DNA of 35,072 bases. Source: a virus. Its lineage: Duplodnaviria; Heunggongvirae; Uroviricota; Caudoviricetes. Within the stretch, counting starts at the first letter, position 1. The number at the start of each line of letters is the position of its first letter. A program made the translations under genes and the position numbers. The notes under the pieces were generated by a model. That model ran no database searches, was not told the DNA's origin, and worked only from the letters and a program-made list of their open reading frames with translations. The DNA lies in the IMG/VR virus record IMGVR_UViG_2698536477_000006. One strand, 5' to 3'. Positions 1 to 28,538 of this stretch are shown piece after piece.

Positions 1-1362
1 ATGTTTAAACCGGAACTCCTTTCCCCGGCGGGAACGCTGAAAAATATGCGTTACGCTTTCGCTTATGGCGCAGATGCTGTTTATGCGGGCCAGCCGCGTT
101 ATTCCCTGCGTGTGCGCAACAACGAATTCAACCACGAAAATCTTCAGCTCGGCATCAATGAAGCCCACGCGCTGGGGAAAAAGTTTTATGTCGTGGTCAA
201 CATTGCACCGCACAACGCCAAGCTGAAAACCTTTATCCGTGACCTGAAACCGGTGGTGGAAATGGGGCCGGATGCGCTGATTATGTCCGATCCAGGGCTG
301 ATTATGCTGGTGCGTGAGCACTTCCCTGAAATGCCGATCCACCTTTCGGTGCAGGCTAACGCCGTGAACTGGGCGACGGTGAAATTCTGGCAGCAAATGG
401 GCCTGACCCGCGTGATCCTCTCTCGCGAGCTGTCGCTGGAAGAGATTGAAGAGATCCGCAATCAGGTGCCGGATATGGAGATCGAGATCTTCGTTCACGG
501 CGCGCTGTGCATGGCCTACTCCGGTCGCTGCCTGCTCTCTGGCTATATCAACAAGCGCGACCCGAACCAGGGCACCTGCACCAACGCCTGCCGCTGGGAG
601 TACAACGTCCAGGAAGGGAAAGAAGATGATGTTGGCAACATCGTACACAAGTACGAGCCGATTCCGGTGCAAAATGTTGAGCCGACGCTGGGTATCGGCG
701 CACCAACCGACAAAGTGTTTATGATCGAAGAGGCCCAGCGTCCGGGCGAGTATATGACCGCGTTTGAAGATGAGCACGGCACTTACATCATGAACTCGAA
801 AGATCTGCGCGCCATCGCCCATGTAGAACGCCTGACCAAAATGGGCGTGCATTCGCTGAAAATCGAAGGTCGTACCAAATCTTTCTACTATTGTGCACGC
901 ACCGCACAGGTTTACCGCAAAGCTATCGATGACGCCGCTGCGGGAAAACCGTTCGATACCAGCCTGCTGGAAACTCTGGAAGGTCTGGCGCATCGTGGCT
1001 ATACCGAAGGTTTCCTGCGTCGTCATACTCACGACGATTATCAGAACTACGAATACGGTTATTCAGTTTCTGACCGCCAGCAGTTTGTTGGTGAGTTTAC
1101 CGGTGAGCGCAAGGGGGACCTCGCGGCGGTAGCGGTGAAAAATAAATTCTCCGTTGGCGACAGCCTTGAGCTGATGACGCCGCAAGGCAACATTAATTTT
1201 ACCCTTGAGCACATGGAAAACGCCAAAGGCGAAGCTATGCCGATAGCACCAGGCGATGGTTATACTGTGTGGCTCCCGGTCCCGCAGGATCTTGAGCTCA
1301 ATTACGCGCTGCTGATGCGTAATTTCTCCGGGGAAACCACGCGTAATCCCCACGGTAAGTGA
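1..1362 (+). CDS. yegQ: U32-family peptidase-like protein YegQ (tRNA hydroxylation, TrhP); host gene
   Basis: 453-aa ORF starting at window position 1; sequence recognised as E. coli YegQ; followed by cyaR as in the E. coli chromosome. Confidence 0.9.
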   Translation: MFKPELLSPAGTLKNMRYAFAYGADAVYAGQPRYSLRVRNNEFNHENLQLGINEAHALGKKFYVVVNIAPHNAKLKTFIRDLKPVVEMGPDALIMSDPGLIMLVREHFPEMPIHLSVQANAVNWATVKFWQQMGLTRVILSRELSLEEIEEIRNQVPDMEIEIFVHGALCMAYSGRCLLSGYINKRDPNQGTCTNACRWEYNVQEGKEDDVGNIVHKYEPIPVQNVEPTLGIGAPTDKVFMIEEAQRPGEYMTAFEDEHGTYIMNSKDLRAIAHVERLTKMGVHSLKIEGRTKSFYYCARTAQVYRKAIDDAAAGKPFDTSLLETLEGLAHRGYTEGFLRRHTHDDYQNYEYGYSVSDRQQFVGEFTGERKGDLAAVAVKNKFSVGDSLELMTPQGNINFTLEHMENAKGEAMPIAPGDGYTVWLPVPQDLELNYALLMRNFSGETTRNPHGK

Positions 1363-1634: not shown

Positions 1635-1853
1635 TTACATCCACATAATTTGCTGCCCTGACGGCAACGGGTGCGGCCTTACGGCGTGGACTTCTCCCGG
1701 CTTCACGATGTATCGCTGTACCGACTCATAAGTGATGAACGTGGCGCTGCAATTCACGTTCTGACACTGGTGATAACGCTCTTTTGTCGTGTCAGTGATA
1801 TAGCGACTTGTACGCGCATGTGCGGCATGCTGGCATAAAGGACAATGAAACAT
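1635..1853 (-). CDS. ogr: Ogr, zinc-finger late-gene transcriptional activator
   Basis: 72-aa product MFHCPLCQHAAHARTSRYITDTTKERYHQCQNVNC... with C4 zinc-binding motif; internal ATG at 1853 chosen over the longer ORF to match P2 Ogr length. Confidence 0.9.
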   Translation of the reverse strand: MFHCPLCQHAAHARTSRYITDTTKERYHQCQNVNCSATFITYESVQRYIVKPGEVHAVRPHPLPSGQQIMWM

Positions 1854-1934
1854 CGCGAGCACCTCTTCCGGTTTTGTTGATGGTGCCATTTTAGTTAATT
1901 TATCCTTATAAAACAAACAGATAAAATAAAAACA

Positions 1935-3591: not shown

Positions 3592-6039
3592 TTAACCGTC
3601 ATGCATCATGCTGGCACGGGCGCGCGCACGTTTATCCCGCTCGTATTTTTCGAGCGCATCCTGTAACTGGCGGTCAAGCTGTGTCCCCTGCGCAGTACCG
3701 CCCGTCAGGTTGATGTGATATTCGTTTTTACTCTGGTCCACATAAGAGCGGCCAGCCGGTGCCGTGACCGGCTGGTAAGCCTGATACCCCGCATAAGAGC
3801 TGGTCGCCGGAATATAATCACCTGTGCCATACGTGGCGGCATGAGTCCTTGCGGCGGTCTGGTCAAGTGTGTCTGACTCTTTGTTGATAACACCGAGTTT
3901 TTCCAGTACCCAGTCAATACCGCTGCGCAGTTTGTTGAACGCATTAAGCGGCAGCATCAGCGCGTCAGCCAGTGCCTGCCCGAACATGACGCCCGTGTCA
4001 CGGCAACGGTTCAGGGTGTCCTGGGTGGCTTTGACCGGGGCAATCAGGTTTTTAAACCACTGCCACGCGGCCTGTAACTTTTCACCCAGCCAGTCAAACA
4101 GCGGCTTAAGTGGCGTGAACAGCTCCCCCACCGGCGCAAATGCCGCTTTCAGCCCTTCAACCACACCGCCAAAGAATGCGCTGACAGGCTCCCAGTATTT
4201 ACGGATAAGTAACGCCCCGGCGACAATAGCGGCCACCACGGCCACAACCGGCCAGCTAATCGCCCCGATGGCGGTCATAACGGCACTGCCAACCGTCGTG
4301 AAGACTGCCCCCATTGCGCCTGCTGCCGCGATGATGGCATTGATGCCGGTGATAACCGGCCAGGCTACAAGACCAATTGCACCGATGATGCCAGTCAGCG
4401 CCAGCGCGCCACCGGCAATGATGCCGATGGTTGACGCCAGTGATTTGTTTTTCTGGATCCAGCCGTCGAGTTTTAACACATACTTTGTGGCCGTCTGCGT
4501 GAGCTTACGCAGCGCGCCTTCCTGCTGGTCAAACAGGTCAGTCCCCACCGCCTCATAAGCGGACTGAAACTCTTTAAAGTCACCGCCTAGGTTGTCCTGC
4601 ATGATATTTACCAGCTCGGCGGTCTTCCCGTCTGAGGCTTTAAACGCAGCGGTCAGTTTGTCCAGCTTTCCGGTTGAGGCGGCAGTCATCAGCACGGCGG
4701 CGGCTGAGCTGGCCTCCTCCCCGAAAATAGTTTTCATGTATTCAGCCTGCTGGGCAGTACCGAGCCGGTTTTTCTCAAAACTGGCCTGCATTTCTTTCAG
4801 AATGGTAAATATTGGCCGGGTGTTTCCCTTGCTGTCTGAGGTTTTCACTCCAAGCTCTTTGAGTGCATCCCATGCTTTTCCCGTCGGTGCCTGCAGGCGG
4901 CTTAACACGGCACGGCTTCCCGTCCCCGCCATTGAGCCTGTAATTTTTGCATCATGCAGCGCCCCGACCATTGCGGCGGTTTCTTCAATGCTGACACCGG
5001 CATTTTTTGCCACAGGTGCGGCATAGGTCAGCGCATCGCTCATGCCGTCAAAATCGGCGGCGGTTTTGTTCATCGTCATGGAGAGAACATCCCCGATATG
5101 AGCGACCTTATCGTTTGAAAGCTGAAAGGCGGATTTCATCCCCATCAGCAGGGCGGCGTTTTCTTCCATCGTGCGGCGGTTCGCCAGCGCCATGTTCAGC
5201 GTGACCGGCGTTGCCGCCTGAATGGCATCAACATCCCCACCGGCTTTCGCAATAATAATCTGCGCACCGGCTGCATCATCTGCCGAGGCGGCGGTATTGT
5301 CGCCGAGCTGGCGCGCCTGTTTGCGTAATGCGGCCATTTCGGCGGAGTCTTTTGCCACACCGAGCACAGCCTGCAATTCTGAGTTTTTCTGCGCAAACTC
5401 ATAACCGGGCATCAGCAGCTTAACACCGGCCATCGTTCCCGCAGCAGCAATCCCCACACCGGCAGCGCTCACTGAGGCCATATTTCCTGCCAGTTCTTTT
5501 CCGGCCTGATAACGCTGTTTTACTGCGTTAAGTTTTGCCTGTTGTGCACTGACACGCGCCAGTGCGTCGCGCTGACGGTTAAGCTGTGCGGTGGTTTCAC
5601 TGATACGGTTTTTCAGCCCCTGCTCATCATGTGCAAGATTGCGGGTATTAATTCCCACAGCGGCCAGTTCCCGCTGCTGGCGTTTAACGGAATCCGTCAG
5701 GCGGTTATATTTCGCCTGTAAGTCCTCCGCCGCTCGCTTTGCTGATTCCAGCACTTTCGCCTGAGCACGTGTCGGACGTTCGGTGTTTTTAAACTGTGTG
5801 GCAAGGGCTTCGGCCTCCTGCCGTGCCTTTTCAAGTGCATGACCAGTCACGGCGAGCTGTGCACTGGTCTTGCGAAATCCCTCAATACGGGATGCCTGAC
5901 CGTTCAGCTCGCGCAGTGATTTTTGTGTTTCCCGGATATCCCCCGACAGCGACTTACTCGCTGTGCGGATGGATTTAAACGGGCGGGATGCCTGGTCAAC
6001 AGCCCTGAGCAATACCTGTAATTTTACATTGTTACTCAT
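3592..6039 (-). CDS. T: Tail tape measure protein T
   Basis: 815 aa, Ala/Gly-rich with coiled-coil and hydrophobic segments; P2 gpT length. Confidence 0.9.
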   Translation of the reverse strand: MSNNVKLQVLLRAVDQASRPFKSIRTASKSLSGDIRETQKSLRELNGQASRIEGFRKTSAQLAVTGHALEKARQEAEALATQFKNTERPTRAQAKVLESAKRAAEDLQAKYNRLTDSVKRQQRELAAVGINTRNLAHDEQGLKNRISETTAQLNRQRDALARVSAQQAKLNAVKQRYQAGKELAGNMASVSAAGVGIAAAGTMAGVKLLMPGYEFAQKNSELQAVLGVAKDSAEMAALRKQARQLGDNTAASADDAAGAQIIIAKAGGDVDAIQAATPVTLNMALANRRTMEENAALLMGMKSAFQLSNDKVAHIGDVLSMTMNKTAADFDGMSDALTYAAPVAKNAGVSIEETAAMVGALHDAKITGSMAGTGSRAVLSRLQAPTGKAWDALKELGVKTSDSKGNTRPIFTILKEMQASFEKNRLGTAQQAEYMKTIFGEEASSAAAVLMTAASTGKLDKLTAAFKASDGKTAELVNIMQDNLGGDFKEFQSAYEAVGTDLFDQQEGALRKLTQTATKYVLKLDGWIQKNKSLASTIGIIAGGALALTGIIGAIGLVAWPVITGINAIIAAAGAMGAVFTTVGSAVMTAIGAISWPVVAVVAAIVAGALLIRKYWEPVSAFFGGVVEGLKAAFAPVGELFTPLKPLFDWLGEKLQAAWQWFKNLIAPVKATQDTLNRCRDTGVMFGQALADALMLPLNAFNKLRSGIDWVLEKLGVINKESDTLDQTAARTHAATYGTGDYIPATSSYAGYQAYQPVTAPAGRSYVDQSKNEYHINLTGGTAQGTQLDRQLQDALEKYERDKRARARASMMHDG

Positions 6040-6459
6040 TCGTGTTTCCGCTTCGCCGGAGCGCCTTTTCGCGCCATGTGATGAGTTCGGTCAGGCTCAT
6101 GGGATACAGTTCTGATGGCGGCCAGTGAAATATCACTGCCACATCCGCCATCAGGTCATCGACCGAGAGATTTTTCGGAAACGTCACTGCACCGAGTTCG
6201 GCGACAAAAAACCGACCACCTTACCGGCCAGCGCCACAAGATCAGGCAGTTCCAGCGCGGCGACTTCCTGCTCGGTCAGCATCGGTGCCGTCATGCGCGG
6301 CAGCACCTTAATCAGTGCATCGACTTCGGAGTTCGCGACCGCTGCCAGACTGACACCGCGCAGCGTCCCGGCATTAGGTTTCATCAGCGTGACCTGTTCG
6401 ATAACCTGCTCACCACGCTTGACCGGATTGTCCAGGGTAATGACATTTTCTTTGTTCAT
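6032..6459 (-). CDS. E+E': E+E' fusion made by programmed -1 ribosomal frameshift (142 aa)
   Basis: Hand translation: slippery heptamer T TTT TTG at 6205-6211 (minus strand) sits 6 codons before the E stop; the -1 frame continues VAELGAVTFPKNLSVDDLMADVAVIFHWPPSELYPMSLTELITWREKALRRSGNTNE to TAA at 6032-6034, giving 85+57=142 aa, the P2 E+E' length. Confidence 0.8.
6184..6459 (-). CDS. E: Tail assembly chaperone E (zero-frame product)
   Basis: 91-aa ORF ending ...KVVGFLSPNSVQ; P2 gpE length; sits between FII and T. Confidence 0.9.
   Translation of the reverse strand: MNKENVITLDNPVKRGEQVIEQVTLMKPNAGTLRGVSLAAVANSEVDALIKVLPRMTAPMLTEQEVAALELPDLVALAGKVVGFLSPNSVQ
6205..6211 (-). other. -1 frameshift slippery site T TTT TTG
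   Basis: Read directly; X XXY YYZ heptamer in the E zero frame (codons GGT TTT TTG). Confidence 0.8.
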
Positions 6460-6515
6460 GGTTTTCTCACTTCTGAATCAGGGTTAACCGGTCAGCCAGG
6501 CTGACCGGATGAAAA

Positions 6516-7034
6516 TCACAGGCCGATATTTCGGCGGTGTTGCTCCAGCCGGTCGACGCCGTTCACCTTCTCAATCATGTTGATGGTGTCGATTTCGACC
6601 AGCTCCTTACCGTCCATCGTCAGCCGGAAATAGGTGCAGACCACGGAGATTTTCGACTCGGTGTCTTCTCCCTGTTTACCCTCGCCGGTGTCGATTTCTT
6701 TCTGACGTCCACGCATGACCACCTCGACGGCCACCGTTTCGCCGGTATCGTCGCGCTGGTAAGAGCCTGCAAAACGAATCGGTACGGCATCCACACCGGT
6801 TGCGGCGTAAAGCTCCCAGATAACCGAATCCGGGAAGCCACCGAGCGACCACTCCATTGACAGCGCATCGTCATCAAGGCCGAGGTCTACCGGTGCGCTG
6901 CCGTTCATACCAGCACCGCGATAGTTTTCGAGCTTACGGGTCAGTTTTGGCAGCGTGACGGACTTCGCGACGCCCTGATAGCTGTAGCCGTTCAGAAAGA
7001 CGTTCATTAACTTGAGTTTGCGCGGCATTGCCAT
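6516..7034 (-). CDS. FII: Tail tube protein FII
   Basis: 172 aa; P2 gpFII length and position. Confidence 0.9.
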   Translation of the reverse strand: MAMPRKLKLMNVFLNGYSYQGVAKSVTLPKLTRKLENYRGAGMNGSAPVDLGLDDDALSMEWSLGGFPDSVIWELYAATGVDAVPIRFAGSYQRDDTGETVAVEVVMRGRQKEIDTGEGKQGEDTESKISVVCTYFRLTMDGKELVEIDTINMIEKVNGVDRLEQHRRNIGL

Positions 7035-8503: not shown

Positions 8504-9832
8504 CTATAAATCAATTAGTTCAAAATTATCATCAATATCTAGAGTACCAATATTGATGGAAATTGTAGAGTTTACTGTACTTCTGATAAAAGTTAATAGC
8601 CCTATGAGTTTAGGCATTAATTCCTCATCAATACCACCCCTCACTACAGCTATAATTTCTCCTTGTGTTATATCTTCCCGCTCTAAAAACTTTTCAAGCT
8701 GTTGGATAGCAGAAAATAAGCGAGTCCTCATTGAGATCAATAAACCCCGAGAAGAAAAGCTTTTAATTTCCACAGCAATAACATCACTTTCTTTTTTAAC
8801 TATTAAATCTATAGTTGGCCTACATCCCAAAGAGGGTGACAGGTCAACTTCGAATCCATTTCTTATGTAAAATTCCGCAACAGATTTTTCGGCCAAATGT
8901 TCTATTGCAATTGGATTTTGGGATTGATAACTATATATAATTTGATTGCGGTCTTCCTCATCAAGATCAATCTCCCCTAGCTTGTTTATTGCACCATTGA
9001 GGATTTCTTTTACTTGGTTTGATAAACTTCTTATTTCACAAAAATCCTGTTTAGTTAAAAATCTGTTATGTGCAACCTTATTTCTCAATTTGTAAAGTCG
9101 CTCCCATTTTCTTTCAAGATGTTGCGAGTTCTCCTCCAGGAGAGTAGAGAAATACTTCTCCCAATTTGATTTGGGTACATATTTAAGTATTTTATTTTTA
9201 TCGGACTCATCAAAATTCGTTTTGATAAGAATCCTATCAAGCTCATCCAGAGTTATATCTCTCTTCTTTTGGAACAAAACTTCTGATAGATTTATGAAAT
9301 CAAGCTTGTAAAGATCATTCAAATACACATCATCTTCTTCAAATTTTTCGATTTTTTTCACTAAGTCTGGATGAATGGCTTCCTTTGACCAAGCCATGCC
9401 TACATTAATAAGCATAAATTTACTTATTAATTTCCTCATTACGTTTTCAACATCATTTATTATAGGGTAAGACTTATGCGCATAATATCTTCCAATATCA
9501 TCCCAAAGAATATTTATTACTGTAGATTCAGGGTTTATCCTTTTGCATAATTCTTTTATTTTATCTCCAACCTCAGAAAATTCATCAATTAATTCTTCGC
9601 TTGTGTTTTCCAATGCAATTATGAAATAACGTTCTTTGTTGGATGGGATGTTATTCGTTTCAACATTGAATTTAACCGTAATTAACGGATTCGATCTTGG
9701 GGTTTTCTTATATGTTAGTTTGCGCCCCGTGATTGAGATAAGCGAGTCAATTTTTAGAAAGTCAATAAAAGCTTTTTTACTATTGCAAAAAGAATCATCA
9801 TTTGTGACAAGAACCAAAAATTCAAGTTTCAC
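8504..9832 (-). CDS. Cargo protein at the Z/fun hotspot: uncharacterised 442-aa protein with HEPN-like Rx4H motif and PD-(D/E)xK nuclease-like motif (candidate anti-phage / abortive-infection effector)
   Basis: Long ORF in a markedly AT-rich island between FI and G. RNKVAH at aa 250-255 (nt 9068-9085) fits HEPN Rx4-6H. P-T-I-D-LIV ... VIAV-E-I-K at aa 339-357 (nt 8762-8818) fits a restriction-endonuclease-like D...ExK core. Own terminator downstream. Confidence 0.6.
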   Translation of the reverse strand: MKLEFLVLVTNDDSFCNSKKAFIDFLKIDSLISITGRKLTYKKTPRSNPLITVKFNVETNNIPSNKERYFIIALENTSEELIDEFSEVGDKIKELCKRINPESTVINILWDDIGRYYAHKSYPIINDVENVMRKLISKFMLINVGMAWSKEAIHPDLVKKIEKFEEDDVYLNDLYKLDFINLSEVLFQKKRDITLDELDRILIKTNFDESDKNKILKYVPKSNWEKYFSTLLEENSQHLERKWERLYKLRNKVAHNRFLTKQDFCEIRSLSNQVKEILNGAINKLGEIDLDEEDRNQIIYSYQSQNPIAIEHLAEKSVAEFYIRNGFEVDLSPSLGCRPTIDLIVKKESDVIAVEIKSFSSRGLLISMRTRLFSAIQQLEKFLEREDITQGEIIAVVRGGIDEELMPKLIGLLTFIRSTVNSTISINIGTLDIDDNFELIDL

Positions 9833-24848: not shown

Positions 24849-26819
24849 TTAAAGGTCATCAATTAAACCTAAAGGCAAACCGTCCTCACCAACCGAGCTA
24901 TAATGAGCGATAATATTCGAAAGTTCACCAGTAGAAAACGAATTAGGCAAATCATTATCAACTAATATAATCTGGCACGGAACATTTTTTCTTTCTGCTT
25001 TTTGAACTGTATTCAATAGTTGTTCATAAATATTTTGATACTTCATCGGATCTGACATTCCCTCAAGGTCATCCTCGAATGCAAGAGTTTCTTTTGAATA
25101 TTTTTCCTTGGTCTGTTTCCCTAAATATTTGCCAACCGTATCAAATATCAAAAGTAAAGGATGGTTAACATTATGATCTATTGCATAATCAAGAATAGAC
25201 AAAAGATACCCAATAGAAGAAATAGTTCTCAAACCTCCGGATGTTATTTTAAAATATTCTTTTTCTCTTATAACAGGAATGTAATAGCTTTCAGAGATTT
25301 TTATCCCCGTTCTGTTTTTGATATTAATACCCTTCAAATACTGACTAAATCTATCACCCAAACCTTGTAAAATGCCCTCCATGCTAGGTGCGTTTTTCTT
25401 TAACGCCTCCAAGCGTTCAGTTAATGCTTCAATATCTTTTCTCAGTACCTGATACTTTTCAAGCAGTTCCTCTTGCTGGTTTCTAACCTTCAAATCTTTT
25501 ACTAACTGCTCCCTAACCTTCTCATTTTTTGAGATCTCTTTAATATAAAAATCTCTCTGAGTCAAGAATGGTGTAATCATTGACTGGCTTTCTTCGTCAA
25601 TCAATTCTCTCAACTCGTCAAGTCGTTCATCTAATTCCTTTTTATAACCTGATTCTTTTTTTAATTTAAATGACATTTCTGAGATCATGTCATTAATATT
25701 TCGTCTACGTCGACTAAGTGAATTCAACTCTTCATTAAGATCTTTTTCTGATGAGATTTCAAATGGAAAATCAGAATCATCTATTTTAATGTGGCTATCA
25801 CAGACTGGACAGGAAAATACTTCCTTATCCAATACACCAATGCGAGAATTTGCTGTTTTAATCGCTTTGAGTTTTTCAATATCATTATCATAGTCATTTT
25901 TTAACCGCGAATATTTATCAATCTTATCCTCAAGCGCAGTAATATTTAATATGCACTCTTTGTATTTAAGCGAAATAAAATTGTGAGCATCTTTCAATTC
26001 TGTATACTGTATGGAATCCGCTTTCATATTTTTATCGAGAGCAGACAAACCTGCAACAAGTTCTTCTAAAACAAGATCTATCCTATTAATCTCATCATCA
26101 ATTGATTCAATCGTTTCATAGTCTGTATCGCGAAGAAATTCAGATATTATCTGATACTTCCTATTTAATTCCGTTACTAAACTACTTTTTGCAGATATTT
26201 CACCTTGGAGTCTGGCGATGCTTTCATCCAACACATTGAACATGTATTTAAAAACTTCTTTCGTAAATGCGTAGCGGGACCAATCACCCAATCGCAAGAA
26301 AGATTTACTACCAATATCATCCTGACTTACATAAACAAATTTATATATATTTCTAAAACTTAACCTGCGCATCTGTGAATGAGCTTTAGAAGGAGACACC
26401 TTAATTTCAATCTTTGGAAAATTAAGACTATCAAGTAAAAACTCCGAAAAAACACCATCAACATTTGATAATGGGCTATAATTAGGAGCGTATTTTTTCG
26501 GAAAATGTTTATGTAAATCATCAAACTTACAACGATAAACTTCTATTGCTTTTTTATGATCATAGATATCTCTTACGATTGTGAATACAGTATCATTGAT
26601 CACTACTTCAAGAGCAGCATAGTTTACTGATGTTTTTATTTCATCTGCTAAATCTATAGAGCTAGCACCTAAAAGATAATTAATAAACTCCAGAATGCTT
26701 GACTTACCTGTGTCAGAGTCTCCGTAGATAACATTGAGACCTTTATAAAAAGTAGTGACGTAGTTTTTACGAACGCCAACAAGAATCAAACTATTGATAT
26801 TGAGATATGATTTCATCAT
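24849..26819 (-). CDS. SMC/Rad50-like ABC ATPase (Lamassu LmuB-like / ABC-3C ATPase component): N-terminal Walker A, long central coiled-coil with CxxC hook, C-terminal signature-like and Walker-B-like motifs
   Basis: 656 aa; Walker A GDSDTGKS at aa 33-40; central region rich in E/K/L heptad-like sequence; CPVC at aa 337-340 (nt 25800-25811); ITSGG at aa 525-529; hydrophobic strand LLLIFD at aa 555-560; start overlaps stop of the upstream gene. Confidence 0.75.
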   Translation of the reverse strand: MMKSYLNINSLILVGVRKNYVTTFYKGLNVIYGDSDTGKSSILEFINYLLGASSIDLADEIKTSVNYAALEVVINDTVFTIVRDIYDHKKAIEVYRCKFDDLHKHFPKKYAPNYSPLSNVDGVFSEFLLDSLNFPKIEIKVSPSKAHSQMRRLSFRNIYKFVYVSQDDIGSKSFLRLGDWSRYAFTKEVFKYMFNVLDESIARLQGEISAKSSLVTELNRKYQIISEFLRDTDYETIESIDDEINRIDLVLEELVAGLSALDKNMKADSIQYTELKDAHNFISLKYKECILNITALEDKIDKYSRLKNDYDNDIEKLKAIKTANSRIGVLDKEVFSCPVCDSHIKIDDSDFPFEISSEKDLNEELNSLSRRRRNINDMISEMSFKLKKESGYKKELDERLDELRELIDEESQSMITPFLTQRDFYIKEISKNEKVREQLVKDLKVRNQQEELLEKYQVLRKDIEALTERLEALKKNAPSMEGILQGLGDRFSQYLKGINIKNRTGIKISESYYIPVIREKEYFKITSGGLRTISSIGYLLSILDYAIDHNVNHPLLLIFDTVGKYLGKQTKEKYSKETLAFEDDLEGMSDPMKYQNIYEQLLNTVQKAERKNVPCQIILVDNDLPNSFSTGELSNIIAHYSSVGEDGLPLGLIDDL

Positions 26820-27328
26820 TTCTCCTTGAAGACTTGATTTATAACAGAGTTTAACTTAGAGGTAGGCAATGCTTGTAGCGGTAACAATGCTTCGGATAGT
26901 CGTTTTATTTCTTTAAAATATCCATCAGTCAATGAGCTAGCAAATTCCTTACCTTTTTCAGATAAAAATAATTTAACACTCTCATTATTTTTTTTCTCAG
27001 CTGAGAGCAATCCCCGCAATGACATAATTTTTATAAGATATTTCACTTTGGAATTGTCGAATAAGATATCTACATTTGTTGAAAAACTCTTTATTGTATA
27101 AGTTAACTGGGACTCGACACAAGCAGGCTTTTTCCCCGAAACTGTAAGAGCATAATCAATTTTTGATGGGTTTTTTATCAGATACATAAAAATTTGTATT
27201 TTATTAATATCTAATGATAACACTCCTTTTTTGCTATGAGATAATATAGATATAGCAATGGCAAGCATAGCAAAATTCAAGCTATACTCTTCATCAAGAG
27301 GAATATACGGCAAGTTATTTTTCTTCAT
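26816..27328 (-). CDS. Small middle component (LmuC-like / ABC-3C MC) of the cassette
   Basis: 170-aa ORF wedged between effector and ATPase with overlapping start and stop codons on both sides; AT-rich like its neighbours. Confidence 0.6.
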   Translation of the reverse strand: MKKNNLPYIPLDEEYSLNFAMLAIAISILSHSKKGVLSLDINKIQIFMYLIKNPSKIDYALTVSGKKPACVESQLTYTIKSFSTNVDILFDNSKVKYLIKIMSLRGLLSAEKKNNESVKLFLSEKGKEFASSLTDGYFKEIKRLSEALLPLQALPTSKLNSVINQVFKEK

Positions 27329-28538
27329 GATTACCTCGCCGTAATTGCTCCAAAGTTTCTACGCTGGTTTCAGATGACCAGACAATATCCCTGTCATTTT
27401 TGTTAGCCAGTTGATGCAACATTCCTTTCTTATGTATCGTTTCTAAACTTTTTATAAGAGAATCTAACGACGACTTATCCTCTTGGGCTATTCGTCTATG
27501 AACAGCAGCAATAAATTTATCTGGGGAAATTGAATTCGCGATATATTGCTCATACTCTTCCTGGTAAATCTCCCTTATTTTAGAATACAAATGACCAAGT
27601 AGTTTCCTATCGTAATCACTCGTAAAAATATTTCTCGCAAGCTCAGCATTATAATAATATTCCTTTGCATGCATAGCGATATCCTGATGTATATCTGCGA
27701 CAATCATTTTTAAGACGAAATACTCATTATCATATTGTTTCTCATCAGAAAAACGCTCAACACATATCTTCTTGGGTGCTTCTAAATTTATCTGCTGAAT
27801 AAATTGCTTTACCGCAACAAACACTGTAGACGAGCTGTTTTCGGGCTTGCAAATTGAGCTATGCCCTTCATTAACTGCAATTGAGTTATTTCGTTCACTA
27901 TCCATCGGTAATGCGCTTTTTTTATCAACTATAGTGTCATGAGAACCATAAACATATCTAGTGATAGGAAGTTTTTTGCTACAATTTATCCAGCGCCTAT
28001 TCAACGTATCGGTCGCTTCACTTAACAATCCAAGATCTACTAACTGAGCATTTGAAGATACCATTGAAGTTATATTCGCCAATTTAGCACCAAAGTGAGG
28101 GACTGCTAACGAAATGAATCCAATTATATTAGATTGTTCCTCATGCTCAACTTTTTTTAGAATTAGATTTTTTGATATTAACCCCCCCATACTATGGGCG
28201 ATTATTATAATTCGAGAGTAATCACTTAGCGTTACCCTAATCTCAGTATACAATAACTCAGCTATTTCATCAGTTGGTAAATTTCTCTCTAACTTATTTT
28301 TCTTAGAGAAAATACGAGCCCATAATCCTGACGTTTTAGCATACGTTTGTGTAAATTTGGTGAAATAATTGAAACATGCAATATCAAATACATTGCCAAT
28401 GTCTTCATCTTCTGCTAATAGTTTTGGAAATGAAGTTTCTTTATTAAAGTTCCATGTTTCCAAACCACCATTTAATCCATGTACAAATAGTATCAGGCTA
28501 TCTTTTTTCTCGTGGCTTATCCATTCAACCATGCTCAT
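27315..28538 (-). CDS. Effector component: N-terminal alpha/beta-hydrolase (lipase/esterase-like) domain plus C-terminal helical domain (LmuA-like with hydrolase effector)
   Basis: 407 aa; oxyanion HG in LFVHGLNGG (aa 17-25); nucleophile elbow AHSMGG with Ser116 (nt 28191-28193); candidate Asp201 (GSHDTIVD) and His226 (NEGHSS) give a Ser-Asp-His triad in canonical order; first gene of the three-gene operon. Confidence 0.7.
   Translation of the reverse strand: MSMVEWISHEKKDSLILFVHGLNGGLETWNFNKETSFPKLLAEDEDIGNVFDIACFNYFTKFTQTYAKTSGLWARIFSKKNKLERNLPTDEIAELLYTEIRVTLSDYSRIIIIAHSMGGLISKNLILKKVEHEEQSNIIGFISLAVPHFGAKLANITSMVSSNAQLVDLGLLSEATDTLNRRWINCSKKLPITRYVYGSHDTIVDKKSALPMDSERNNSIAVNEGHSSICKPENSSSTVFVAVKQFIQQINLEAPKKICVERFSDEKQYDNEYFVLKMIVADIHQDIAMHAKEYYYNAELARNIFTSDYDRKLLGHLYSKIREIYQEEYEQYIANSISPDKFIAAVHRRIAQEDKSSLDSLIKSLETIHKKGMLHQLANKNDRDIVWSSETSVETLEQLRRGNHEEK

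What the first reader, a model, noticed from the sequence alone, without database searches (positions are those of the whole stretch)
6032..6459. Programmed -1 frameshift producing E+E' is intact and can be reconstructed by hand
The heptamer T TTT TTG (6205-6211, minus strand) lies six codons before the E stop. Shifting -1 there gives a 57-codon extension that terminates at TAA 6032-6034, overlapping the start of T (6039). The resulting 142-aa fusion matches the known P2 E+E' size. This is the conserved tail-chaperone frameshift (analogous to lambda G/GT) and would be missed by standard ORF calling.
Basis: seen in the sequence. Interest (0 to 1): 0.5.

Follow-up and report, generated by a model that had tools for sequence, protein, structure and literature searches.

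The report
Known P2 tail-chaperone E/E+E' frameshift
This is the well-known programmed -1 ribosomal frameshift that lets phage P2 make two tail-assembly chaperones (E and the longer E+E') from one start codon; it sits intact in a P2-like prophage of E. coli, so it is correct but ordinary.

Summary
Every coordinate in the finding checks out. On the minus strand, gene E runs 6459..6184 (91 aa). The heptamer T_TTT_TTG lies at 6211..6205 in the slip-competent phase, six sense codons before the TGA. The -1 frame then runs 57 codons to TAA 6034..6032, which overlaps the tape-measure gene T start (ATG 6039..6037). The fusion is 142 aa.

The window is a P2-like prophage. The segment is 99% identical to phage P2, and identical from the heptamer to the E' stop. 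The P2 reference record annotates the same joined CDS as a -1 frameshift. Only the fusion carries both Pfam domains, Phage_TAC_7 and Phage_P2_GpE.

The arrangement is conserved in 18 divergent Peduoviridae and in 79 of 80 species-level bacterial loci. Synonymous sites inside the heptamer are frozen (GGT 77/77, TTT 78/78).

RefSeq's automatic annotation calls E' a separate 51-aa gene, so the claim that ORF callers miss the fusion also holds.

Verdict: real, correctly interpreted, already known (Christie 2002; Xu 2004). The one possibly new detail is a Shine-Dalgarno-like AAGGUG element just 5' of the heptamer. It is under synonymous-site constraint, and its role is untested.

The parts
6184..6459 (-). 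Gene E (0-frame product gpE, 91 aa), a tail assembly chaperone
   Evidence: ORF list and translation. Pfam PF10109 Phage_TAC_7, residues 7-85, E = 2.6e-12. PHROG 103 'tail protein', E = 2.6e-45.
6205..6211 (-). Slippery heptamer T_TTT_TTG (codons Gly83 third base, Phe84, Leu85)
   Evidence: Sequence and phase. Identical to the annotated P2 site. Synonymous sites are frozen in 78 distinct Enterobacterales sequences: GGT 77/77, TTT 78/78, TTG 75 and TTA 3.
6032..6205 (-). E' : the -1-frame extension (57 codons plus TAA), read from G6205
   Evidence: Translation. Pfam PF06528 Phage_P2_GpE at fusion residues 104-139, E = 1.2e-21. PHROG 1756 covers fusion residues 82-142, across the junction. 100% identical to P2 DNA.
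6032..6459 (-). Whole E+E' coding region (142-aa fusion after the -1 shift)
   Evidence: Corresponds to P2 CDS 19430..19857 'E+E'', joined from two pieces.
6184..6186 (-). 0-frame stop TGA of E, the 3' limit of the productive shift window
6221..6223 (-). TAA in the -1 frame. The -1 frame opens only 3 codons before the heptamer, so this is the 5' limit of the shift window.
   Evidence: -1 frame open from local position 940, which is window 6220. This stop is not conserved in relatives.
6214..6221 (-). Shine-Dalgarno-like AGGUGGUC. It can pair with 16S 3' GAUCACCU (8 bp including one G.U) and lies 2 nt 5' of the heptamer. Candidate modulator, function untested.
   Evidence: Duplex energy -12.8 kcal/mol, in the top 1.5% of 22-nt stretches in the locus. 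Lys codon AAG 66: AAA 1 and Val GTG 72/78 in relatives. The codon-shuffle control is only marginal, p about 0.05.
3592..6039 (-). Gene T (tape measure protein, 815 aa). Its ATG overlaps the E' stop (ATGAGTAA). Presumed client of the chaperones.
   Evidence: ORF. Pfam PF10145 PhageMin_Tail, E = 2.4e-45. Same length as P2 T.
6516..7034 (-). Gene FII (tail tube, 172 aa), immediately upstream of E
   Evidence: Pfam PF04985 Phage_tube, E = 2.3e-60.

Best explanation
This is the programmed -1 ribosomal frameshift of a P2-like (Peduovirus) prophage.

Most ribosomes translating gene E stop at TGA 6186..6184 and release the 91-aa chaperone gpE. A minority slip back one base at GG-U_UUU_UUG: the Phe and Leu tRNAs re-pair on UUU_UUU. 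Those ribosomes read on from G6205 in the -1 frame for 57 codons and make the 142-aa gpE+E'.

By analogy with lambda gpG/gpGT, the shared N-terminal domain is thought to coat the tape-measure protein T. The rarer E' domain is thought to recruit tube subunits (FII). The slip frequency would then set the E : E+E' ratio needed for tail assembly, and neither protein ends up in the virion.

Shown here: the anatomy, identity to P2, domain content, and family-wide conservation of the heptamer, its phase and the -1 ORF. Taken from the literature for P2: the shift really occurs, and its efficiency is 2-3 times lambda's. Inferred: the division of labour between the two domains.
For: - Anatomy and phase.
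- 99% identity to P2, and 100% from the heptamer to the E' stop.
- The P2 RefSeq record annotates E+E' as a joined CDS with a -1 frameshift, essential.
- PF10109 plus PF06528 occur together only in the fusion. All 20 reconstructed fusions from the window, P2 and 18 divergent relatives match PF06528, and 18 of 20 match PF10109.
- In the 18 relatives, down to 32% identity, an in-phase X_XXY_YYZ heptamer sits at the homologous place and the -1 frame stays open to the tape-measure start. This includes non-homopolymeric heptamers: G_GGA_AAG, C_CCT_TTC, A_AAT_TTT.
- 79 of 80 IMG/VR loci and 79 of 80 species-level genome loci keep the site.
- The heptamer's synonymous positions are invariant while a nearby Gly codon varies freely.
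- Literature: PMC3091744 gives TTTTTTG, 91 and 142 aa, and no downstream hairpin. PMC5009743 gives the lambda G/GT mechanism and says P2 efficiency is 2-3 fold higher.
Against: - Nothing here measures translation. The shift and its frequency are taken from work on P2, and the primary paper (Christie 2002) was not available.
- U_UUU_UUG is not among the listed efficient E. coli heptamers in Sharma 2014. No conserved 3' stimulatory structure exists. What makes the site efficient is therefore unexplained.
- Residue 85 could be Leu (tandem slip) or Phe (P-site slip on an empty A site). Sequence alone cannot decide.
- A GTG at 6187 overlapping the E stop (GTGA) could in principle allow separate initiation of a 51-aa E'.
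Confidence: 0.96

Rival explanations
1. E' is a separate gene, as RefSeq PGAP annotates it. A 51-aa protein would start at GTG 6187..6185, perhaps by termination-reinitiation at the overlapping GTGA, with no frameshift needed.
For: PGAP calls a 'GpE family phage tail protein' CDS corresponding to window 6187..6032. The ORF listing finds the same 51-aa ORF. The start overlaps the E stop by 4 nt, a common coupling arrangement.
Against: - The GTG is not conserved even in close relatives. The homologous -1-frame codon specifies Leu in ST147, Ile in 186 and Val in YenM, and gene callers pick different starts in each record.
- The E stop moves between 6 and about 24 codons after the heptamer, while the heptamer stays fixed.
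- Only a GGUG 2 nt upstream could serve as an SD, which is too close.
- The -1-frame peptide is conserved right from the heptamer (VAE.G), and PHROG 1756 matches across the junction.
- Frozen synonymous sites in the heptamer have no explanation under this model.
- Published work on identical P2 sequence reports the fusion.
Confidence: 0.02
2. The fusion arises by RNA polymerase slippage on the T6 run, which adds one U to some transcripts, rather than by ribosomal slippage.
For: The site is a homopolymeric run of six T. Long A or T runs are known to cause transcriptional slippage, and AAAAAAA/UUUUUUU are under-represented in E. coli genes partly for that reason.
Against: - Six residues is shorter than the runs known to give productive slippage in bacteria (my own knowledge: about 9 or more).
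- Relatives use G_GGA_AAG, C_CCT_TTC and A_AAT_TTT, which are not homopolymers but fit tandem tRNA re-pairing.
- The run is always in the X_XXY_YYZ phase, and the seventh base is constrained to G or A (Leu TTG/TTA, never CTN) in 78 of 78 sequences. Polymerase slippage needs neither.
Confidence: 0.015
3. The arrangement is an accident: a frameshift mutation or sequencing error in a decaying prophage, with no programmed function.
For: Decayed versions do exist. IMG/VR locus L004 has a 2-nt deletion inside E. A Symbiopectobacterium locus (L103) has E and E' fused in one frame by a deletion.
Against: - The same two-frame layout occurs in the P2 type phage, in 406 phage records with an E relative, and in 1583 of 5426 complete E. 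coli genomes.
- Both frames encode conserved Pfam domains.
- The neighbouring tail genes FI, FII, T, U and D have exactly the P2 lengths.
Confidence: 0.005

Closest known systems
Bacteriophage P2 genes E and E+E' (NP_046781 / NP_046780; Christie et al. 2002, J Bacteriol 184:6522)
   Same: Same genes. 91-aa E and 142-aa E+E'. T_TTT_TTG at the same codons. DNA identical from the heptamer to the stop. Same neighbours: FI, FII upstream and T, U, D downstream.
   Different: One amino-acid difference (N29 here, S29 in P2) and nine nucleotide differences over window 6000-6500, all upstream of the heptamer. Here it is a prophage carrying different cargo genes.
Phage lambda G / G-T tail assembly chaperone -1 frameshift (Levin 1993; Xu, Hendrix and Duda 2004, 2013, 2014)
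   Same: Same position between the major tail or tube gene and the tape-measure gene. Same logic: a short abundant product and a rare -1 extended product from one start. [quoted passage not shown]
   Different: - No detectable sequence family in common: only PF10109 and PF06528 are hit.
- Heptamer T_TTT_TTG rather than lambda's G_GGA_AAG (from my own knowledge).
- Contractile rather than non-contractile tail.
- Reported efficiency 2-3 times higher.
E. coli dnaX -1 frameshift (A_AAA_AAG with a 5' SD-like stimulator and a 3' hairpin)
   Same: A bacterial -1 shift on an X_XXY_YYZ heptamer with an anti-SD-complementary element upstream.
   Different: - Here the SD-like element ends 2-4 nt from the heptamer rather than 8-14 nt. 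By published rules that placement attenuates -1.
- No conserved 3' hairpin.
[quoted passage not shown]

Membership tests
P2-type E/E+E' tail chaperone frameshift (Peduoviridae) | Short ORF E located between the tail tube gene (FII) and the tape-measure gene (T) | tested here: met
   FII 7034..6516 (PF04985), E 6459..6184, T 6039..3592 (PF10145), all on the minus strand.
P2-type E/E+E' tail chaperone frameshift (Peduoviridae) | In-phase slippery heptamer (T_TTT_TTG in P2) near the 3' end of E | tested here: met
   TTTTTTG at 6211..6205, phase GG-T_TTT_TTG, six codons before the stop. Same offset as in P2.
P2-type E/E+E' tail chaperone frameshift (Peduoviridae) | -1-frame ORF overlapping the end of E, running to the start of T and carrying the GpE domain (PF06528) | tested here: met
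   57 codons ending at TAA 6034..6032, overlapping the T ATG. PF06528 E = 1.2e-21.
P2-type E/E+E' tail chaperone frameshift (Peduoviridae) | N-terminal TAC domain (PF10109) homologous to P2 gpE | tested here: met
   PF10109 E = 2.6e-12, above the gathering score. 141 of 142 residues identical to the reconstructed P2 fusion.
P2-type E/E+E' tail chaperone frameshift (Peduoviridae) | The fusion protein is actually made by -1 ribosomal slippage, at roughly 10% in P2 | not testable with these tools
   Reported for P2 with identical sequence: RefSeq note, PMC3091744, PMC5009743. The primary paper is not held. The 10% figure is from my memory of its abstract.
P2-type E/E+E' tail chaperone frameshift (Peduoviridae) | E+E' is essential for tail assembly | not testable with these tools
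   The P2 RefSeq note says 'essential tail protein'.
Lambda G/GT-type tail assembly chaperone frameshift (Xu et al. 2004 class) | Two overlapping ORFs between the major tail or tube gene and the tape-measure gene, joined by a programmed shift | tested here: met
   The class is described.
Lambda G/GT-type tail assembly chaperone frameshift (Xu et al. 2004 class) | Sequence homology to lambda gpG or gpT themselves | tested here: not met
   Pfam hits at E <= 0.01 are only PF10109 and PF06528, with no lambda G or T family. No solved-structure relative by sequence. This is a functional analogue, not a demonstrable homologue. A fold comparison was not done.
dnaX-type stimulated -1 frameshift | SD-like stimulator 8-14 nt 5' of the heptamer | tested here: inconclusive
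   A strong, conserved SD-like element exists, but it ends 2-4 nt from the heptamer. Published rules predict attenuation at that spacing.
dnaX-type stimulated -1 frameshift | Stimulatory hairpin or pseudoknot 5-9 nt 3' of the heptamer | tested here: not met
   No conserved structure across 15 relatives: consensus energy -1.18 kcal/mol. The only strong local hairpin starts about 50 nt downstream. PMC3091744 also reports none.

The most novel reading that the evidence does not exclude
The Shine-Dalgarno-like element AAGGUG(G/A)U(C/U) lies 2-4 nt 5' of the heptamer and is held by synonymous-site selection across Enterobacterales P2-like prophages. It may be a functional rRNA-pairing modulator of this frameshift. 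It could be a stimulator working at an unusually short spacing, because it pairs with the 5' part of the anti-SD. Or it could be a built-in attenuator that sets the E: E+E' ratio. Either would explain how a heptamer of modest intrinsic efficiency, with no 3' structure, gives a tuned shift frequency.
Probability: 0.3. Interest if true: 0.35.

Novelty: already known. Interest (0 to 1): 0.1.

Why it matters
For biology, very little is new. This confirms a textbook recoding event in one more P2-like prophage, a phage type found in about 29% of complete E. coli genomes.

The practical value is for annotation. RefSeq PGAP and many GenBank phage records still split E+E' into 'tail assembly protein' plus a spurious small 'GpE family' ORF. 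The 142-aa essential protein is therefore missing from most protein databases, and a simple rule could restore it: an in-phase T_TTT_TTR heptamer upstream of a PF06528 ORF.

The conserved SD-like element next to the slip site is a cheap, testable lead on how bacterial -1 frameshift efficiency is set without a 3' structure.

Tried and rejected
1. A 3' stimulatory structure. The 105 nt after the heptamer fold unusually well (-39.2 kcal/mol, z = -3.1). This is due to a 10-bp stem (CUGAUGGCGG / CCGCCAUCAG, 6154..6111) that starts about 50 nt downstream. That is too far to act, and it is not conserved in the family (consensus -1.18 kcal/mol). The arms encode the conserved LMAD and PPSE. Rejected as a stimulator.

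2. A 5' hairpin or intrinsic-terminator look-alike. The terminator scan flagged 6232..6211 followed by the T run. It folds at -10.5 kcal/mol, z = -1.8, with four G.U pairs, and is absent in nine relatives. Rejected as chance.

3. Is the SD-like element explained by the amino acids alone? Resampling synonymous codons gave p about 0.05-0.2 per locus, which is suggestive only. The synonymous-site census is the stronger evidence.

4. The primary paper (Christie 2002) could not be read by DOI or PMC id. Secondary sources were used.

5. No solved structure by sequence and no NCBIfam model matches the fusion.

It was repeated with 7 sequences.

7. Structure prediction and fold search against lambda-type chaperones were not run.
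Full report
**1. Checking the observation**

I read the minus strand of 5900..6600 and recomputed everything by script.
- Gene E starts at ATG 6459 and ends at TGA 6186..6184, giving 91 aa.
- TTTTTTG occupies 6211..6205. T6211 is the third base of Gly codon 83, so the 0-frame reading is GG-T_TTT_TTG (Phe84, Leu85). This is the X_XXY_YYZ phase that tandem tRNA slippage needs.
- Six sense codons (SPNSVQ) follow before the stop.
- Re-reading from G6205 in the -1 frame gives 57 codons (VAELGAVTFPKNLSVDDLMADVAVIFHWPPSELYPMSLTELITWREKALRRSGNTNE) and TAA 6034..6032.
- The tape-measure gene T starts at ATG 6039..6037, so the two overlap as ATGAGTAA.
- The fusion is 85 + 57 = 142 aa.

Every number in the finding is right. 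The one imprecision is the shift point: the base read twice is 6205, not 6208.

**2. Is it more than chance?**

The heptamer alone is not. TTTTTTG occurs 23 times in the window on both strands, against 12.5 expected. The combination is different.
- I listed all 45 in-phase X_XXY_YYZ heptamers in 35 genes of the window (10,343 codons). The E site has the longest -1 extension, and it is the only one whose extension runs past the 0-frame stop.
- The zone where both frames are open is only 12 codons long, from the -1-frame TAA at 6223..6221 to the 0-frame TGA at 6186..6184. The heptamer is the only slippery site in it.
- The extension matches Pfam PF06528 (Phage_P2_GpE) at E = 1.2e-21. The N-terminal part matches PF10109 (Phage_TAC_7) at E = 2.6e-12. 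Only the fusion carries both. PHROG 1756 matches residues 82-142, across the junction.

**3. What the window is**

The window is a complete P2-like (Peduovirus) prophage, about 96% identical to P2 over the structural genes. It is flanked by a peptidase U32 host gene at 1..1362. The 428-nt E/E' segment is 100% identical to E. coli strain MMC-J-0020, and a copy is found in 1583 of 5426 complete E. coli genomes.

Against the P2 reference, positions 6000..6500 are 99% identical. All differences lie upstream of the heptamer, and from the heptamer to the E' stop the DNA is identical. The fusion differs from P2's at one residue (N29 versus S29).

FI, FII, T, U and D have exactly the P2 lengths. The FI upstream region with the late promoter is conserved. 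The operon therefore looks intact.

**4. Conservation in relatives**

A tblastn search with E residues 1-85 found relatives in 406 phage records. I fetched 18 divergent ones, from 76% down to 32% identity.
- In all 18, an in-phase X_XXY_YYZ heptamer sits at the homologous place, just after ...GF(L). The -1 frame stays open from there to the tape-measure start.
- Twelve of the 18 use T_TTT_TTG. The others use TTTTTTT, TTTTTTC (two), C_CCT_TTC, A_AAT_TTT and G_GGA_AAG.
- The -1-frame peptides share a strong motif (DDLMADIAVIFHWPPSE...L.EL..WRE.A..RSG). All 20 reconstructed fusions (window, P2 and the 18 relatives) hit PF06528.
- 79 of 80 near-identical IMG/VR loci keep the 91 aa / heptamer / 57-codon layout.
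- Among 80 loci from a one-genome-per-species collection, 76 have TTTTTTG and 3 have TTTTTTA.
- Across 78 distinct sequences, the synonymous positions of the heptamer never vary: Gly GGT 77/77, Phe TTT 78/78, Leu TTG 75 and TTA 3, never CTN. The Gly four codons upstream is GGT 43, GGC 21, GGG 8.

This shows direct selection on the slippery sequence. Together with the non-homopolymeric heptamers in distant relatives, it argues for tRNA re-pairing rather than polymerase slippage.

**5. Mechanism**

The literature I could read agrees with this picture.
- PMC3091744 states that P2 shifts -1 at TTTTTTG to give a 91-aa E and a 142-aa E+E', and that no downstream hairpin exists.
- The Atkins review describes the lambda G/GT model. 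G and the G part of GT bind the tape measure, the T part binds the tube subunit, the ratio is critical, and neither protein is in the virion. It adds that in P2 and its relatives the efficiency is 2-3 times lambda's.

I therefore take the best explanation to be a ribosomal -1 shift that makes a minority E+E' alongside E, both acting as chaperones of gpT. What is shown here is anatomy, identity and conservation. That the shift occurs is taken from work on P2. The division of labour between domains is by analogy with lambda.

Residue 85 may be Leu (tandem slip) or Phe (P-site slip before Leu-tRNA arrives). Sequence cannot tell which.

**6. Stimulatory elements**

I looked for 3' structure. The downstream 105 nt fold well (z = -3.1), but through a stem that begins about 50 nt away. 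An alignment of 15 relatives shows no conserved structure.

A terminator-like hairpin that ends in the T run is weak and not conserved.

I did find a strong anti-Shine-Dalgarno match immediately 5' of the heptamer.
- AGGUGGUC (6221..6214) can pair with 16S GAUCACCU at -12.8 kcal/mol.
- In 13 of 19 loci, this is among the strongest such matches in the whole 1.6-kb locus.
- 89% of 72 distinct species-level contexts reach -10 kcal/mol or better.
- The Lys codon in the element is AAG 66: AAA 1, whereas an equally conserved Lys 29 codons upstream is AAA 47: AAG 31. The Val codon is GTG in 72 of 78.
- A codon-resampling control was only marginal per locus.
- The element is missing from the relatives that use C_CCT_TTC, A_AAT_TTT or G_GGA_AAG (Kp4848-1, Citrobacter Shae_phiSM, Mannheimia PHL101), and it is weak in Mana, ST79 and 2F_1, which keep a T-run heptamer.

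Published spacing rules place -1 stimulators 8-14 nt upstream, and say that an SD next to the E site attenuates -1. The direction of any effect is therefore open. U_UUU_UUG is also not listed among the best E. coli heptamers, so something may be tuning this site. This is the only part of the locus that might be new.

**7. Rivals**

- Separate initiation of a 51-aa E' at GTG 6187 is what PGAP annotates. However, the GTG is not conserved, the E stop moves while the heptamer stays fixed, and the frozen heptamer codons would be left unexplained.
- Transcriptional slippage is unlikely for a six-base run. It also does not predict the constraints on phase and on the seventh base.
- Decay or sequencing error is excluded by the conservation. 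Two genuinely decayed copies were seen: L004 with a 2-nt deletion in E, and L103 with E and E' fused in one frame.

**8. Verdict**

The feature is already known from P2 (Christie 2002) and as a class (Xu, Hendrix and Duda 2004). The statement that standard ORF calling misses it is also true of current RefSeq and many GenBank records. Interest is low at 0.1. The SD-like element is a modest lead.

Noticed in passing
window 6214-6221 (minus strand); also loci L084-L101 and L104-L182: A Shine-Dalgarno-like AAGGUG(G/A)U(C/U) lies 2-4 nt 5' of the slippery heptamer. It is held by synonymous-site bias (Lys AAG 66: AAA 1; Val GTG 72/78) across Enterobacterales P2-like prophages. It is absent from the relatives that use non-T-run heptamers (C_CCT_TTC, A_AAT_TTT, G_GGA_AAG) and weak in Mana, ST79 and 2F_1. 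Its role as stimulator or attenuator is unknown.
   Followed up: partly
window 24849-28538 (minus strand): Three low-GC ORFs (32-34% GC against about 56% for the phage backbone) form a Lamassu / ABC-3C defence system. They are LmuB (656 aa, PADLOC E = 1.5e-235), LmuC (170 aa, E = 1.5e-52) and LmuA (407 aa, E = 9e-109) with an alpha/beta-hydrolase N-terminal domain. They sit in the slot that holds old/tin in P2, between Q/cos and gene A.
   Followed up: partly
window 8504-9832 (minus strand): A 442-aa ORF with about 31% GC sits in the slot that holds Z/fun in P2, between the tail-fibre genes and FI. It has only sub-threshold matches: HEPN_Swt1 (E = 5.6e-4), AHJR-like REase (E = 8.5e-3) and PADLOC candidate PDC-M34B (E = 4.7e-7). 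It has no NCBIfam model. This may be an uncharacterised single-gene defence cargo.
   Followed up: partly
window 6111-6154 (minus strand, inside E'): A 10-bp perfect inverted repeat CUGAUGGCGG...CCGCCAUCAG with an inner hairpin makes the 105 nt after the heptamer fold at z = -3.1. It is present in P2, ST147 and 186 but is not conserved further. The arms encode the conserved LMAD and PPSE, so it is probably a by-product of coding.
   Followed up: yes
window 6488-6508 (minus strand, FII-E intergenic): A perfect 8-bp hairpin CCGGUCAG-CCUGG-CUGACCGG lies just after the FII stop. Phage 186 has an annotated 'tI; partial terminator of pJ transcript' at the same place. It may lower E-T-U-D expression relative to sheath and tube. 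Seen in the sequence only.
   Followed up: no
L103 (Candidatus Symbiopectobacterium, NZ_PEHF01000066.1) about 1100-1150; L004 (IMG/VR 2531839586_000013): These are two decayed copies. In L103, a deletion just 5' of the T run removes the SD-like element and fuses E and E' into one frame, so no separate E would be made. In L004, a 2-nt deletion breaks E around codon 52.
   Followed up: partly
RefSeq NZ_CM128549.1 22461-22616 (corresponds to window 6187-6032), and many phage records: There is a systematic annotation error. PGAP and several submitters call E' a stand-alone 'GpE family phage tail protein' or 'hypothetical protein' of 37-51 aa, with arbitrary starts, instead of the joined E+E' CDS.
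   Followed up: yes
window 1-1362 (plus strand) and 1635-1916 (minus strand): The host flank is a peptidase U32 family gene (PF01136, E = 5e-89), followed directly by the phage ogr gene (Ogr/Delta zinc finger). From memory this resembles the yegQ-ogrK P2-remnant site of E. coli K-12; that was not checked.
   Followed up: no
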